A stretch of 64,000 nt of DNA, from contig NIVC01000678.1 of assembly GCA_002269645.1 (NCBI GenBank), positions 1 to 64,000 on the forward strand, in the 5' to 3' direction. Positions 29,186 through 37,995 of this stretch are shown piece after piece (position 1 is the stretch's first letter; each line of letters starts with the position of its first letter). The position numbers and the translations under genes are program-made. This DNA comes from Macrostomum lignano. Its lineage: Eukaryota. The notes under the pieces were generated by a model. The model did no database searches and was not told the DNA's origin. It worked only from the letters and a program-made list of their open reading frames with translations.

Positions 29186-29335
29186 TCTCTATCCAGGTCT
29201 GGTTCGTTAATATTTTTCCTACTACAATATGTTCTGCCCAGAAAAGAACAACCAACAGCTGATAGGGAATGCAGCTCAGACTCCTGATCCAGACTCTCCT
29301 CCCCATCAATTCCCCATCAAAATCTCCCGCACCAG

Positions 29336-30629
29336 GAGGCCCTGCTGAGCGGCGCCGCAGCGGGCCTGCTAGTGGACCTGTCCCTGTACCCGCTGGACAC
29401 CCTGAAGACCCGCGCCCAGTCCAGCGCCGGCTTCTGGTCCTCGGGCGGCCTGCGCGGCCTCTTCCAGGGCGTCTCCGTTGTCTCCCTGCTGTCCATGCCG
29501 GGCGCCGCCGTCTTCTTCGTCACCTACGACACTGGCAAGCGGCGCCGACTGCCTCTGCCGGTCGCCGCTTGCCTCGGCGAAGCCGCCGCCTGCCTCGTCC
29601 GCGTGCCCTGCGAGGTGGTGAAGCAGCGCGCCCAGATCGACCGGCTGGGCCGTCGGCCCTACCGGATCTTCGCCGACTGCCTTCGCGAGGAGGGCCCGGC
29701 GGGACTCTACCGAGGCTTTCGCAGCACCATCATCCGCGAGCTGCCCTTCGCCAGCCTGCAGTTCCCGCTGTGGGAGGCCTTGAAGGCTCTGGCCGGGCCG
29801 GGCTGGGCCGACAAGCCCGCCACCTCCGCCGCCTCCGGGTTCGCCGCTGGCGGGCTGGCCGCCTTCCTCACCACCCCGCTGGACGTGGCCAAGACTAGGA
29901 TTATGTTGGCGTCCAGGTGAGCACTGCGGGTCGAGACCTTAGTGTCCCATAGATTGGCTGAATTCCCACGTAGGCTAAATGAATTCCCCCCAGTAGGCTG
30001 ACAGAATTCCCCCTGTAGGCTGAATGAATTCTCCACAGTCTGATTGAATTCCTCCAGTAGGCTGACTGAATTCCCCCTGCTGGCTGGCTAAATTCCCGCC
30101 AGTAGGCTGACAGAATTCCCCCTGTAAACTGAATGAATTCTCCACAGTCTGATTGAATTCCTCCAGTAGGCTGACTGAATTCCCTCAGTGGGCTGGCTGA
30201 ATTCCCCCCCCCCGTAGGCTGACTGAATTACCCCAGTAGGCTGACTGAATTCCCTCAGTGGGCTGGCTGAATTCCCCCCCGTAGGCTGACGAAATTCCCT
30301 CTGTAGGCAGGCTGAATTGCCCGCAGTCTGATTGAATTCCCCTCAGCTTAAACGAATTCCCCATGCTCCATCTGAATTCCCTACAACCCAGTGTACAGCA
30401 AGCAATTTAACACAGAGGAACCTCTTCCTCAACTCCTGTCATTTGAAGCCACGACCGCCTGGCCTCCGGCAGCGTGCTGGCCGCCCTGTCCGCGGTGCAC
30501 TCGGAGCGCGGCCTGCCGGGCCTGTTCGCCGGGGCGGCGCCGCGAACGGCCATGATTGCCATCGGCGGCGCCGTGTTTCTTGGCGTCTACGACACCGTGA
30601 GACTCCTGCTGAGCAGGCTGGCCAGTTAG
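29336..30629 (+). CDS. SLC25A26: Mitochondrial S-adenosylmethionine carrier; exons 29336-29916 and 30449-30629; start exon upstream (candidate ATG 27142 after TTTTTTTAG)
   Basis: EALLSGAAAGLLVDLSLYPLDTLKTRAQS, LVRVPCEVVKQRAQ, TTPLDVAKTRIML, GLFAGAAPRTAMIAIGGAVFLGVYD: three PxD/ExxK carrier repeats closely matching SAMC. The phase-2 junction is compatible. Confidence 0.9.
29945..30350. repeat. About 22-bp intronic minisatellite (CTGAATTCCCCCAGTAGGCTGA-like)
   Basis: Visible degenerate array in intron 29917-30448. Confidence 0.9.
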
Positions 30630-31148: not shown

Positions 31149-33914
31149 AAGGTAATGTTTCTCATGCTAAGTCGCCTGTTCGCCTGTGGATGAATCTTGC
31201 GGTGCATATCAGCGTTGTCTACTATCAGTAGTCTAAAAAGCATGTCAATTGACATTTTCAGCAGGCATCGGTCGGTGTTTATCACTACAGTCGGCGGCTC
31301 CAGCCGCTTCGCTGCGAGTTCTGCGGCGGCGTCGGTCGGTTCTCCGACATTGTGTCGCTCAGCCGGCTGGCTGTCACTGACTACGAGGCCCTGTTAAACC
31401 GCGGCTGGCGTCGAAGCGCCGGCAGGGTGTACCGGCTGCGGCCGGACCTGACCTGCTGCGCCAAGTTCCCAATGCGTCACCTGGTCGATGCGTTCCGGCC
31501 TAGCCGGAGCCAGCGGCGCTGTCTAAGGCGATTCGCCAGCGCTCTGTTTGGCAGCGCGCCAGTTGGGCCCGCTGGTGATTCCGATTTGCCAACCGGAAGT
31601 GGAATCTTTTATCAAACCGGAAGCGGAACTATCTATCAAGCCGGAAGTAGAACCAACTACCAAACCGAAAGCGGAACCAACTATCAAACCGGAAGTGGAA
31701 CCAACTACCAAACCGGAAGCGGAACCAACTATCAAACTGGAAGTGAAACCAACTATCAAACCGGAAGTGAAACCAACTATCAAACCGGAAGTGGAACCAA
31801 CTATCAAACCGGAAGTGGAACCAACTATCAAACCGGAAGTGAAACCAACTATCAAACCGGAAGTGGAACCAACTATCAAACCGGAAGTGGAACCAACTAC
31901 CAAACCGGAAGCGGAACCAACTATCAAACTGGAAGTGAAACCAACTATCAAACCGGAAGTGAAACCAACTATCAAACCGGAAGTGAAACCAACTATCAAA
32001 CCGGAAGTGAAACCAACTATCAAACCGGAAGTGAAACCAACTATCAAACCGGAAGTGAAACCAACTATCAAACCGGAAGTGGAACCAACTATCAAACCGG
32101 AAGTGGAACCAACTACCAAACCGGAAGCGGAACCAACTATCAAACTGGAAGTGAAACCAACTATCAAACCGGAAGCGGAACCAACTATCAAACTGGAAGT
32201 GAAACCAACTATCAAACCGGAAGTGAAACCAACTATCAAACCGGAAGTGAAACCAACTATCAAACCGGAAGTGAAACCAACTATCAAACCGGAAGTGGAA
32301 CCAACTATCAAACCGGAAGTGAAACCAACTATCAAACCGGAAGTGAAACCAACTATCAAACCGGAAGTGAAACCAACTATCAAACCGGAAGTGAAACCAA
32401 CTATCAAACCGGAAGTGGAACCAACTATCAAACCGGAAGTGAAAATATTTTACATTTTATCAGCAGCCGGATGCGCCCCGGAAAGGCCCGCTACAAGCGC
32501 TGGTCAGCCGGACTCGATGCACTGCGCGCCCGAGCCGGCGCCCTCGGCCAATCCGCCGACGCTCTGCTCGCCGAGCGCGCCAACCGTTGGCGCCGTCGTC
32601 GCGAGCTTCGCCAGCGCCGCCAGTCGGCGCCCAGCCTAGCCGAACTCGTCGACCCGCTGATGATTGGCGGTCCAGGCGGCCGCGGTCGCCTCCTGTGGCG
32701 CCTGGTGCCGTCGGACAGTCAGCTGGCCATCAGCTCCGGACACGCCTGCTACTCCGCCTACCAGTGCGCCGTCCACGGCGACTCCCCGGCCGACTGCGGC
32801 GAGGCCAAGTTCCGCCGATTTCTCTGCCTCAGTCCGCTGGCGGCGGAGGCGGCGGAGGCTGAGACCGACGTCCAGTGGCCGAAGGGATCCCACCATTCCC
32901 AGCTGCTGCTGGATGGCCGCCTGATCGGCGTTGACGTCATCGACATTCTTGACAGGTTTGTTGGCGGGGACAGAGCGACCACACTAGCAGCTGCCTCTGC
33001 CATTCTCAAAGCTGCCACTCAGCCTGTTAAAAACTCCCCTCAGCCCCTCATCTACACTGAGAATCGCCCCTCAACCACACTGAGAATCGCCCCTCAACCA
33101 CACTGAGAATCGCCCCTCATCTACACTGAGAATCGCCCCTCATCTACACTGAGAATCGCCCCTCAACCACACTGAGAATCGCCCCTCAACCACACTGAAA
33201 ATCGCCCCTCATCTACACTGAGAATCGCCCCTCAACCACACTGAGAATCGCCCCTCATCTACACTGAGAATCGCCCCTCATCTACACTGAGAATCGCCCC
33301 TCAACCACACTGAGAATCGCCCCTCAACCACACTGAGAATCGCCCCTCATCTACACTGAGAATCGCCCCTCAACCACACTGAGAATCGCCCCTCAACCAC
33401 ACTGAGAATCGCCCCTCATCTACACTGAGAATCGCCCCTCAACCACACTGAGAATCGCCCCTCAACCGCACTGAGAATCGCGCCTCAACCACACTCCCTC
33501 AGCACCGTCTCCTCCGCCTACTTCTTTTTCGACCCGGCCTTCAAGCGCCTGCAGCTGGGCAAGGTCAGCGCCCTGCTGCAGCTGCGCCGCCTGCAGGGAC
33601 ACCCGAGGCTGAGGCACTACACCATGGGCTCATACTCCCCGCTGTCTGTTAAGCTGGCCTACAAGGCGGAGTTTCAGCCGGCGCAGATCATGTGCCCCAT
33701 CGCTCTGCGCTGGCTTCCATTCGACAGAGACTATCGCTGTCGGCTTGAGGCCGGTCAGCTCAGAGGTCTCTATGCCGACCTCGGGGGTGCCGATGATGAC
33801 GCTGAGGTTGGCGACTCCTCGGACTCTGACGGTGTTCGGCGGGCTGGGCTGCGCCGGTTCGCCAGACTGGCTGGGCAGCAGTGCGCCTCTCGCTTTCGGC
33901 TGCTTGTTGACTGA
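31143..33914 (+). CDS. ATE1: Arginyl-tRNA--protein transferase 1; proposed exons 31143-31151 (MVK micro-exon), 31265-32955 (containing a 24-bp array that may be an intron), 33503-33914
   Basis: RCEFCG, DYEALLNRGWRRSAGRVY, TCC, FRPSRSQRRCLRRF, KFRRFLCLSPL, DGRLIGVDVIDIL, VSSAYFFFDP, LGKVSAL, YTMGSY, KLAYKAEFQP, MCP match the ATE-N and ATE-C domains. The start micro-exon (AAG|GTAATG...TTTTCAGCAG) is inferred. Confidence 0.9.
31600..32445. repeat. 24-bp tandem repeat (AACTATCAAACCGGAAGTGAAACC)n, about 35 units, in frame with ATE1 (NYQTGSET)
   Basis: Visible; the ORF track shows uninterrupted reading 31352-33106. Confidence 0.95.
33045..33495. repeat. 23-bp intronic minisatellite (CACACTGAGAATCGCCCCTCAAC)n
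   Basis: Visible array in ATE1 intron 32956-33502. Confidence 0.95.
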
Positions 33915-36096: not shown

Positions 36097-36321
36097 TTTT
36101 TCTGAAACAATTGACAGTCCATAATTTGTGAGTTTTGTTTAAATGTGCTGGTCAGCTGATTCACACAAAACTATAAATGAAAATGACAAAATGACCTGGC
36201 ACCTGGGGAAAATTGATTTAAATTTCTGATAGAGCCAATGATTTTAATTGCATTACTATTATATTTATAATCATAAAATAAATTTGTTTTAACTTTCCTA
36301 AAATATCTTATCACTATAATT

Positions 36322-37995
36322 TTGAAATTTTTTTCGTTGGAAACCGAAAAACAACGGAATCCAGAACTGGAAAAACGAAAAGAAACCGCAATGCAGGACT
36401 TGGTCATGCCTACAGGCACGACAATCAGGTCACAGGAGACGCAAACGTCAAACAAGGTGGCGACTCCAAATGAACAAACAATGGAACCAGTTTGTACGAT
36501 CCCGATGAGTGAAGCAAGCGTGAAGACAAACACGACCATAAGAAGGCGAACTATGGAGAACAAGATGGTCGAAATGAGAGCGAACACAACAATAGCGCCA
36601 AGACAAACCCTACGAATCTGGCCAATGATTCTGATGGGACTGCTCATTTTTGCCGGAAGTTTCTGCGAAATCGAAGCGATGCAAACGGAAGGTACGCACA
36701 CGCAATATGTGGACAGTCCAAAATTTCGCACCGACATTGGAGCCCCCATAGCAATTCGGCTGCCGGAACAACAGGACTGCAAAATTCCAAAGGAAGGACA
36801 AGACGGACGGATAAAGCTTAAATTAACTTTACACGATGAGAACGCCGAGACACATAAAAGTGTCATGAAGATATGCCACAGAGAAGACTACAGTTTCACA
36901 GCGCAACTGTACAAAATCGCAGGAAAAACAGTATTCGTGGACTTGACAGTAGCGATTAAGCCACGAACAGTCACAGTGGAACAATGTAACTCGTGGAATG
37001 CAGGAGCTACAACAGAAGATGGAACATTGGAAGAAGACCTCAAAGTGGATGGTCGCATCAGCCGATACTCTACGAAAAAATGGGTTCGAAATGACCTAGA
37101 TAATCTGGCTAAGACCGGAGAGAAATTAGAAATAACAGTCAGCACTGTGTTGACGAATGTACCATACTACGTTTCGGAAAATGGAATGAACTCGTTGTAT
37201 GTGCCAGTAGACAAATGCAAATACAAGGAGAGCAAGTGCCAACGGGACGAGAAAGCGGCAAATTTTAAAATATGGCCACTAGAACGCACTTTACCAGAAC
37301 GACTTTGGTCAGTGACAAACTTCTACGACAGAGAATATCGAGTGCGAGGTTCAAGACTGTACCAGATGGTATGGACAGTGCATGAACATTACCAATGCCA
37401 GTACCAGAAAGGACGACAACTGGTCGGATACATGCACACGGACTGGTTTCAATCGGAAGATATGACATACGTGCTAACCTTTCAGAGACCAGTAAAACTG
37501 AATGCATCATGTGCAGAAGACAAGTATACTTTATACAAGGCGGAAGCTCTAAGATTAGCTCGAGAAATCGCCAGACACAATCTACAGCAAGCACAAAAGC
37601 GAACGCACAAACAAGCCAACAAGGGGCGACAGCAAACGACTCTACAAGTAGGTGACAGAGTCATGCTACAAGAACCACTAAGAACTGCAAAACATCAACC
37701 ACAATTTTCGGGACCGTATAGAGTGATTCGGAAACTCAACGAAACGAATGTAGCCATCCGATCGGAAGACAATAACAAGGAACCAATGCGGGTACACGTC
37801 GACAGATTAAAAAAGATGCAGAACCCGGAGGAATCTGTTTTCTTGCCCGATTTCCAACCGACGGACCCCAGAAGAATGGCACTACAGCAGAGGAAGCCGC
37901 TATATAGAACAATTGGCACGCAAGTCTCGGATGAACTGGAAGAGCATCCCGCTCATGCATACAACTTGCGGAGCAGGGACAAAATCCAACACTAA
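36322..37995 (+). CDS. 557-codon retroelement ORF (first ATG 36391): S/T-rich leader, internal signal/TM segment, Cys-rich viral-glycoprotein-like ectodomain, fused to a Gypsy integrase C-terminal region
   Basis: Hydrophobic IWPMILMGLLIFAGSFCEIEA. Cys spacing KICHRED...TVEQCNSW...DKCKYKESKCQ...KIW resembles class III (rhabdovirus G-like) fusogens. Integrase tail begins at about 37540. No RT, RNase H or DDE core. Confidence 0.7.
   Translation: MKFFSLETEKQRNPELEKRKETAMQDLVMPTGTTIRSQETQTSNKVATPNEQTMEPVCTIPMSEASVKTNTTIRRRTMENKMVEMRANTTIAPRQTLRIWPMILMGLLIFAGSFCEIEAMQTEGTHTQYVDSPKFRTDIGAPIAIRLPEQQDCKIPKEGQDGRIKLKLTLHDENAETHKSVMKICHREDYSFTAQLYKIAGKTVFVDLTVAIKPRTVTVEQCNSWNAGATTEDGTLEEDLKVDGRISRYSTKKWVRNDLDNLAKTGEKLEITVSTVLTNVPYYVSENGMNSLYVPVDKCKYKESKCQRDEKAANFKIWPLERTLPERLWSVTNFYDREYRVRGSRLYQMVWTVHEHYQCQYQKGRQLVGYMHTDWFQSEDMTYVLTFQRPVKLNASCAEDKYTLYKAEALRLAREIARHNLQQAQKRTHKQANKGRQQTTLQVGDRVMLQEPLRTAKHQPQFSGPYRVIRKLNETNVAIRSEDNNKEPMRVHVDRLKKMQNPEESVFLPDFQPTDPRRMALQQRKPLYRTIGTQVSDELEEHPAHAYNLRSRDKIQH

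What the first reader, a model, noticed from the sequence alone, without database searches (positions are those of the whole stretch)
36322..37995. Intact LTR-element ORF: class-III-like viral glycoprotein fused in frame upstream of a Gypsy integrase tail
Seen: a stop-free 557-codon ORF with an internal signal-like segment, a Cys-patterned ~280-aa domain, then an unmistakable Gypsy integrase C-terminus (GPY/F module, YNLRSR end). Known: rhabdovirus G has the pattern CH...W/Y.TT...G..Y.T.SI....P.VEQC...V.V....V.VD..TG...G.C....C.T.....W. This ORF parallels it (KICHREDYSFTAQ...AGKTVFVDLTVAIKPRTVTVEQCNSW; ITVSTVLTNVPYYVSENG...DKCKYKESKCQ...KIW). LTR elements have captured viral fusogens several times, normally downstream of pol. 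Here the order is reversed, and there is no TM anchor, Gag, RT or DDE core. Inference: an env-bearing lophotrochozoan Gypsy lineage, possibly with env upstream of or inside pol, or a non-autonomous element making a secreted glycoprotein-integrase-tail chimera that could be domesticated or act in receptor interference.
Basis: partly seen in the sequence, partly recalled or inferred. Interest (0 to 1): 0.8.

Follow-up and report, generated by a model that had tools for sequence, protein, structure and literature searches.

The report
Deleted retroelement with half an envelope
This reading frame is a broken copy of a retrovirus-like mobile element in which a deletion joined the front half of a predicted herpesvirus-gB-like envelope gene to the tail of the integrase; intact relatives carry the envelope between gag and pol, an order already described, and this copy is likely non-functional.

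Summary
The 557-codon ORF and its integrase tail are real. It is a remnant of a Ty3/gypsy element, missing its 5' end and about 4.4 kb inside. Six of 8 relatives read in full have LTRs and one 2,458-2,866-codon frame: Gag, signal, envelope ectodomain, membrane anchor, protease, RT, RNase H, integrase. A relative's ectodomain matches herpesvirus gB by profile (E 1.5e-13) and predicted fold (E 5e-20). The window keeps only its front half. The junction recurs at a second insertion site and in a public run, so it is no assembly chimera. Domestication is unsupported: pN/pS is 0.97 against the other insertion, which has three stops, and an empty version of the site exists. GAG-ENV-POL elements with gB-type envelope are published for flatworms (PMC13524379), and this scan met them before on other DNA. 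Left over: a sister family made a similar in-frame fusion independently and copied it to at least five sites. I found no account of that in two searches aimed near it, but no sign that the fragment is selected.

The parts
36321..39496 (+). Whole insert: 5'-truncated, internally deleted Ty3/gypsy element (no 5' LTR, no gag core)
   Evidence: Contigs of 2 of 4 public runs join 36320 to 39510; LTR end from solo-LTR comparison
36322..37995 (+). The chimeric ORF (557 codons from TTG; 534 aa from ATG 36391)
36339..36615 (+). Remnant of the gag-env linker
   Evidence: 36339-36493 is 85-86% identical to DNA just after gag in three related deleted elements; the rest is inferred from position
36616..36666 (+). 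Hydrophobic signal or anchor segment in front of the envelope
   Evidence: Hydropathy peak 2.03; same position in 8 of 8 relatives read; cleavage is inferred
36676..37538 (+). Front half of a gB-type envelope ectodomain (predicted fusion domain I and most of domain II); lacks furin-like site, central helix, crown domain and membrane anchor
   Evidence: Aligns to residues 3-301 of a 588-aa relative ectodomain at 35%; alignment A1; model and fold searches of the relative
37538..37539 (+). In-frame deletion junction (about 1,480 codons missing relative to G000:C1189)
   Evidence: identical in C1551, C2718, C2596; bridged by a contig of run X4
37539..37995 (+). Integrase C-terminal tail with GPY/F module and native stop
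   Evidence: Pfam PF22938 at about 37711-37815; continuous with a full RNase H-integrase frame in G000:C20
37996..38646 (+). 3' untranslated region ending in a purine-rich tract (38637-38646)
   Evidence: shared with C20 and C1551
38647..39496 (+). 3' LTR (TAT...ATA ends); same family as solo LTRs elsewhere
   Evidence: 95-99% matches in 7 of 7 solo-type loci fetched; 5-base target duplications visible in 4 of those 7, a fifth with a variant end

Best explanation
The ORF is a likely non-functional remnant of a Ty3/gypsy retroelement of the gag-env-pol type: an in-frame internal deletion of about 4.4 kb joined the front half of its predicted gB-type envelope gene to the integrase tail, and this copy has also lost its 5' LTR and gag. 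Shown: intact relatives in the same genome encode Gag, signal segment, envelope ectodomain, membrane anchor, protease, RT, RNase H and integrase in one frame between near-identical LTRs; the deleted form sits at two different insertion sites. Inferred mechanism of the parent: the single polyprotein threads through the ER membrane twice, leaving Gag and Pol in the cytoplasm and the envelope in the lumen, where signal peptidase and a furin-like protease would release a class III fusion protein. Inferred origin of the remnant: a template switch at short shared sequence during reverse transcription, then copying in trans by intact elements, then loss of the 5' end at this site. If translated, the product would enter the ER and have no anchor and no trimer-forming helix, so it could not fuse membranes. 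The open frame is likely a by-product of young age and a one-in-three frame.
For: Gene order in 6 of 8 relatives read in full, with LTR pairs 99.1-100% identical and Pfam domains in the order fusion glycoprotein, protease, RT, RNase H, integrase. Profile of 12 ectodomains hits EBV gB at E 1.5e-13; 7 of 12 match Pfam Monjiviricetes_fusion. Model of a relative's ectodomain: pLDDT 79.7; all 36 PDB rows listed are herpesvirus gB (best E 5e-20); PRV gB domain IV aligns at Z 10.9, 4.0 A over 169 residues. Junction against C20. Second insertion site: C1551, C2718, C2596 share flanks with each other (99.8-99.9%) but not with the window. Envelope half, window against C1551: 4 synonymous, 14 non-synonymous changes including 3 stops, pN/pS 0.97, plus a one-base gap in the tail. 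First cysteine is present in 11 of 11 other rows of A1 and absent in the window. Empty site in 2 of 4 runs. Deletions ending in the integrase tail are a recurring class: four were characterised, 3 in frame and 1 out of frame.
Against: The direct parent's envelope was not found (7 matches, none full-length), so the short shared sequence at this junction is inferred from relatives' protein motifs only. The pN/pS rests on 18 changes and cannot be assigned to one lineage; the three stops lie in the other insertion, while the window copy has stayed open. The fold was predicted for a 35%-identical relative, not for the window protein, whose own single-sequence model failed; whole-chain TM-scores are low (0.24-0.30) and rmsd high. 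The empty site may be a duplicated chromosome segment, not an allele. An independent in-frame fusion of the same type has been amplified in a sister family.
Confidence: 0.8

Rival explanations
1. Selected soluble envelope fragment: helper-dependent elements keep signal plus gB domains I-II in frame because the secreted fragment does something (blocks entry of envelope-bearing relatives, or aids spread). The window copy would be a decaying example and the sister family the active one.
For: Two families made the fusion independently. The sister form is a 1,031-codon Gag-envelope-half-integrase-tail frame at 6 loci, 5 of them with complete LTR pairs 99.8-100% identical, distinct flanks and 4-base target duplications. 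It keeps the furin-like site, so a free domain I-II piece would be predicted. It outnumbers near-identical undeleted envelope copies at that junction (6 against 4 at 97% or more). The one out-of-frame envelope-to-tail deletion is single-copy.
Against: 3 of 4 in frame is not significant (binomial 0.11, hand calculation). An in-frame gag-to-integrase deletion without envelope is also single-copy. Copies differ by only 1-3 of 3,093 bases, too few to test selection. The low pN/pS (0.12) against the full-length copy is identical in all five and may predate the deletion. Keeping Gag and the native stop could explain the frame without any envelope role.
Confidence: 0.12
2. Host domestication of the window copy as a secreted glycoprotein gene driven by a neighbouring promoter.
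For: The frame is intact with an ATG and a signal-like segment.
Against: Only about 1-2% diverged from another insertion, neutral-looking substitutions, a lost conserved cysteine, an empty version of the site.
Confidence: 0.04
3. Assembly chimera.
For: Many related loci in this assembly show frameshifts, so errors occur.
Against: The same junction is at four contigs and two insertion sites and is bridged by a contig of run X4 with 117 and 93 letters on the two sides (that run may be related to the assembly's source).
Confidence: 0.02
4. The junction is a splice junction of a subgenomic RNA that was reverse-transcribed.
For: The upstream side ends in AAG, a common exon end.
Against: The integrase-side sequence before the junction ends GTG, not AG; the sister junction shows a short shared stretch instead.
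Confidence: 0.02

Closest known systems
GAG-ENV-POL Ty3/gypsy 'errantiviruses' with HSV/gB-type ENV (Chary and Hayashi, eLife 2026, PMC13524379)
   Same: Same gene order and envelope type, reported for Nematoda, Bryozoa and Platyhelminthes. Their table lists 9 flatworm elements, one from Macrostomum lignano with 16 copies, whose primer-binding site and LTR length match the C1470-type family here.
   Different: They kept only intact elements and removed truncated ones; 'non-autonomous' does not occur in the main text. The window copy is such a truncated derivative, and its envelope is only 20-35% identical to the other families. Nine envelope types are separable among my 12 aligned rows against one listed for that species.
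Non-canonical nematode endogenous retroviruses (Sacco et al. 2022, J Gen Virol, doi 10.1099/jgv.0.001739)
   Same: Envelope before pol (as cited in PMC13524379). Homologues named from Meloidogyne, Globodera and Caenorhabditis are among my hits. From recall only: one continuous gag-env-pro-pol frame and a nyamivirus-like envelope, which fits the top viral fold match.
   Different: Different host phylum. The paper was not held, so nothing more was compared.
Herpesvirus glycoprotein B and nyamivirus/chuvirus G (class III fusion proteins)
   Same: Profile and predicted-fold similarity over most of the relative's ectodomain.
   Different: 10-18% identity. The window protein has only the front half and no anchor. 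Fusion activity was not tested.
Soluble truncated envelopes of vertebrate endogenous retroviruses that block entry (Refrex-1, suppressyn; recalled, from no call)
   Same: Signal plus front part of an envelope without anchor.
   Different: Class I envelopes, fixed and conserved host genes; none of that is shown here.

Membership tests
Ty3/gypsy LTR retrotransposon (parent family) | Pol order protease-RT-RNase H-integrase | tested here: met
   Pfam order in two relatives; window tail continuous with RNase H-integrase of C20
Ty3/gypsy LTR retrotransposon (parent family) | Paired LTRs, primer-binding site, purine tract, target duplication | tested here: met
   6 of 8 relatives have LTR pairs; window family LTR has solo copies with 5-base duplications
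Ty3/gypsy LTR retrotransposon (parent family) | RT phylogeny or profile places it in Ty3/gypsy and not BEL/Pao or Copia | not tested
   No RT tree was built; assignment rests on domain order and the GPY/F tail
gB-type GAG-ENV-POL errantivirus (parent family) | Envelope between gag and pol | tested here: met
   for the window lineage itself: linker, envelope half, integrase tail in that order
gB-type GAG-ENV-POL errantivirus (parent family) | Ectodomain with gB-like fold between two hydrophobic segments | tested here: met
   (predicted model of a relative)
gB-type GAG-ENV-POL errantivirus (parent family) | Trimer formation, fusion loops and cysteine-bridge class (C1/C2/C3) | not tested
   Only a monomer was modelled; the paper's figures are not held
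Intact errantivirus (this copy) | Uninterrupted Gag, Env and Pol with two LTRs | tested here: not met
   No 5' LTR, gag core, anchor, protease, RT, RNase H or integrase core
Domesticated envelope gene | Purifying selection and fixation | tested here: not met
   pN/pS 0.97 on 18 changes; empty site in 2 of 4 runs. Both tests are weak.
Domesticated envelope gene | Expression | tested here: inconclusive
   Only assembled contigs of runs of uncertain kind were available
Rhabdovirus G proper | Closest structural neighbour is vesiculovirus/lyssavirus G | tested here: inconclusive
   Listed PDB rows are all gB; rhabdo-like viral proteins appear among the viral rows. A family not listed is not excluded.

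The most novel reading that the evidence does not exclude
Gag-env-pol elements repeatedly spin off helper-dependent derivatives that are selected to keep Gag plus a signal-led, anchorless gB domain I-II fragment. In the sister family this derivative is being copied and would release a soluble class III envelope subunit, the first invertebrate counterpart of entry-blocking truncated envelopes and a handle on whether these envelopes use a receptor at all.
Probability: 0.12. Interest if true: 0.65.

Novelty: new member of a known kind. Interest (0 to 1): 0.32.

Why it matters
The locus itself is a broken copy and matters little. Its family matters more: this genome holds at least nine envelope types of young gag-env-pol elements, several with 99-100% identical LTRs, and near-identical proteins are named from a laboratory flatworm with transgenic tools (PMC12801592 abstract). 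PMC13524379 states that the entry mechanism of gB-bearing elements is unknown, so this is a place where expression, processing and tissue niche could be observed. If the amplified half-envelope derivative proved to be selected, it would be a new kind of interference between retroelements.

Tried and rejected
Single-sequence fold of the window domain failed (pLDDT 30) and was not searched. Pfam finds nothing in the window's envelope half alone. Two word-index protein searches with a relative's ectodomain found nothing (weak evidence), as did phmmer against PDB; profile searches then succeeded. A search for the direct full-length parent found none (lower bound only); C20 holds only RNase H to LTR. 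Expression: no RNA holder listed on record; contigs cannot show strand or level. Of 127 front-half matches, 17 lacked a back-half match nearby: 4 window type, 6 sister type, 7 others. Of those 7, four (C4120, C262, C738, C1417) continue into the back half with frameshifts or an insertion, two (C87, C1522) are old fragments, one (C1356) is a true out-of-frame deletion. No heat-shock element pattern in the window LTR. The envelope tree is a quick one with long branches meeting; I use only its grouping of the window with C368/C1189/C2598 (support 99). Literature: searches returned no paper, one search returned only irrelevant ones, one unrelated preprint (listing only). The claim that amplified half-envelope derivatives are not described rests alone and is weak; Sacco 2022 was not available, and figures and 2 of 7 supplementary files of PMC13524379 were not inspected beyond term search. 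No earlier notes exist for this genome. Rhabdovirus G as the nearest relative, splicing, assembly chimera and domestication were considered and set aside as above.

Full report
Observation. The ORF is as described. The frame is open from 36277 to 37995, 557 codons from the TTG at 36322, 534 aa from the first ATG at 36391. It has one hydrophobic segment (residues 76-92), nine cysteines and no later anchor. Pfam finds only the integrase C-terminal module (PF22938, E 1.2e-8, above cut-off) and a weak SH3_Tf2-1 match on the same stretch. After 651 bases of 3' UTR and a purine tract comes an LTR at 38647-39496, with TAT...ATA ends; of 7 solo-type loci fetched, 4 show clean 5-base target duplications.

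The parent family. Searching the own genome (G000) with the cysteine-rich domain gave 127 matches, many in open frames of 2,400-2,866 codons. I read 8 such loci in full, chosen to cover different identity bands. Six have LTR pairs 99.1-100% identical and one frame carrying a zinc knuckle, a hydrophobic segment, the cysteine-rich ectodomain with an RxxR furin-like site, a second hydrophobic segment, protease, RT and integrase motifs. The other two have the same order but a stop (C368) or a frameshift (C2598). Pfam confirms the order on two of them. So the envelope sits between gag and pol, in frame with both.

The envelope is gB-type. A profile of 12 ectodomains (A1) hits Epstein-Barr virus gB at E 1.5e-13; the first 22 of 26 rows are herpesvirus gB. 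Seven of 12 members match Pfam Monjiviricetes_fusion (best E 3e-10). A 52-sequence alignment gave a model of the C368 ectodomain with mean pLDDT 79.7 and a long central helix at 334-379. Foldseek lists only herpesvirus gB in its 36 PDB rows (best E 5e-20) and Midway nyavirus G first among viral models (E 5e-27). Whole-chain TM-scores are low (0.24-0.30), as expected if hinged domains sit differently (inference); the isolated PRV gB domain IV aligns at Z 10.9 and 4.0 A over 169 residues. The window protein aligns with residues 3-301 of this ectodomain at 35% and stops before the furin-like site and the central helix. Its assignment to domains I-II is inferred from the relative's model and from established gB architecture.

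The junction is a deletion. A copy on G000:C20 is 97% identical to the window from 37539 onward but continues upstream into the integrase core and RNase H. Against the full-length C1189 frame about 1,480 codons are missing. The same junction occurs on C1551, C2718 and C2596; those three share flanks (99.8-99.9%) and count as one insertion, at a different site from the window's. A contig of run X4 bridges the junction with 117 and 93 letters; contigs of X2 and X14 reach 30 letters past it, one short of the tool's criterion; X1 shows the integrase-core form there. An assembly chimera is therefore very unlikely. The direct parent's envelope was not found, so the short shared sequence at this junction is inferred, not seen.

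The window copy looks dead. It starts at 36321 in the gag-env linker with no 5' LTR. Contigs of 2 of 4 runs join 36320 to 39510, a version of the site without the insert; this may be an allele or a duplicated segment. Against the other insertion the envelope half shows 4 synonymous and 14 non-synonymous changes, three of them stops, pN/pS 0.97; the tail has a one-base gap; the non-coding part differs at 16 of 1,500 bases. The window copy lacks the first cysteine found in the 11 other rows of A1. With so few changes an open frame needs no selection (hand estimate). Against this reading: the numbers are small, and all three stops are in the other insertion.

A recurring event. Of 127 front-half matches, 17 lack a back-half match nearby. 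Six of them are an independent in-frame deletion of 4,416 bases in the C717-type family. It gives a 1,031-codon frame of Gag, signal, envelope half with its furin-like site, and the last integrase residues. Five of 5 loci fetched in full have LTR pairs 99.8-100% identical, different flanks and 4-base target duplications; the sixth is cut by a contig end. The junction has a short shared stretch on both sides. These copies lack RT and integrase core, so they were copied in trans (inference). C1356 is a third envelope-to-tail deletion, out of frame and single-copy. C4582 is an in-frame gag-to-integrase deletion with identical LTRs, also single-copy among 40 of 96 candidates scored. Three of four in frame is not significant. 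Keeping Gag and the native stop codon is a simpler reason for the amplified form than a role for the envelope piece (inference).

Mechanism. Shown: gene order, LTRs, deletion, recurrence, predicted fold of a relative. Inferred: two membrane crossings of one polyprotein, release of the envelope by signal peptidase and a furin-like protease, fusion by a class III mechanism, template switching as the cause of the deletions, copying by helpers. The window product, if made, would be an anchorless half-envelope carrying a stray integrase tail in the ER lumen and could not form the fusion trimer.

Comparison with what is known. PMC13524379 (I read the abstract, sections 5, 6 and 9 part 1, section 14, term passages, and term hits in supplementary files 2, 3, 5, 6, 7) reports GAG-ENV-POL Ty3/gypsy elements with gB-type envelope in Nematoda, Bryozoa and Platyhelminthes and lists nine flatworm elements. 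One, from Macrostomum lignano, has a primer-binding site and LTR length matching the C1470-type family here. A library protein nearly identical to the C247/C270 frame is named from that species, which is my basis for the likely host. The paper removed truncated elements. Sacco et al. 2022 I know only from its citation there and from recall. In the 50%-cluster library 499 proteins match the profile; of 151 proteins checked (the 150 listed plus the window's own) 25 carry a zinc knuckle before and a protease or RT motif after the envelope in one chain, and 3 of 10 looked up are named from nematodes. PMC12801592 (abstract and term passages) surveys this species' LTR elements without the words envelope or glycoprotein. 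Earlier notes of this scan describe the same arrangement on other DNA; one mentions anchorless gB fragments in a helper-dependent element, a lead I did not test.

Verdict. Real feature, ordinary origin: a deleted copy of a published kind of element. Interest 0.32, carried mainly by the number of young envelope-bearing families and by the amplified half-envelope derivative.

Noticed in passing
L090:2223-9096 (G000:C2869), also L091-L095: Recently amplified helper-dependent element: one 1,031-codon frame of Gag, signal, envelope front half with furin-like site and integrase tail; 5 independent insertions, LTRs 99.8-100% identical.
   Followed up: yes
L062:4623-5420 (G000:C717): Extra 266-codon frame with RING fingers (Pfam zf-C3HC4_3, E 4.8e-7) between pol and the 3' LTR; that region is kept in the deleted sister copies.
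   Followed up: partly
L085, L086, L087, L074 (G000:C1884, C247, C1695, C695): Envelopes with a 200-270-residue threonine-rich, mucin-like insert of variable length between two basic cleavage-like sites.
   Followed up: no
L106 (C1356), L112 (C4582), L096-L098 (C3805, C4060, C2285): Further internally deleted derivatives ending in the integrase tail, with or without envelope.
   Followed up: partly
window 38647-39496; L047-L048: LTRs of the window family end in TAT...ATA and not TG...CA, with 5-base target duplications; other families have TG starts and 4-base duplications.
   Followed up: partly
L055:5387-6730 (G000:C1551): A 338-base direct repeat pair about 1 kb apart, the first followed by a primer-binding-like site of the C1189 type: possibly a miniature LTR element.
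   Followed up: no
window 40600-41150, minus strand: Broken Tc1/mariner-like transposase remnant, judged from a recalled motif.
   Followed up: no
window 29288-29920, 31253-33914, 43430-44609, 45845-46678: Ordinary host genes: mitochondrial carrier, arginyl-tRNA-protein transferase, ribosomal protein L15e, PP-loop/zinc-ribbon protein, with tandem-repeat arrays in between.
   Followed up: partly
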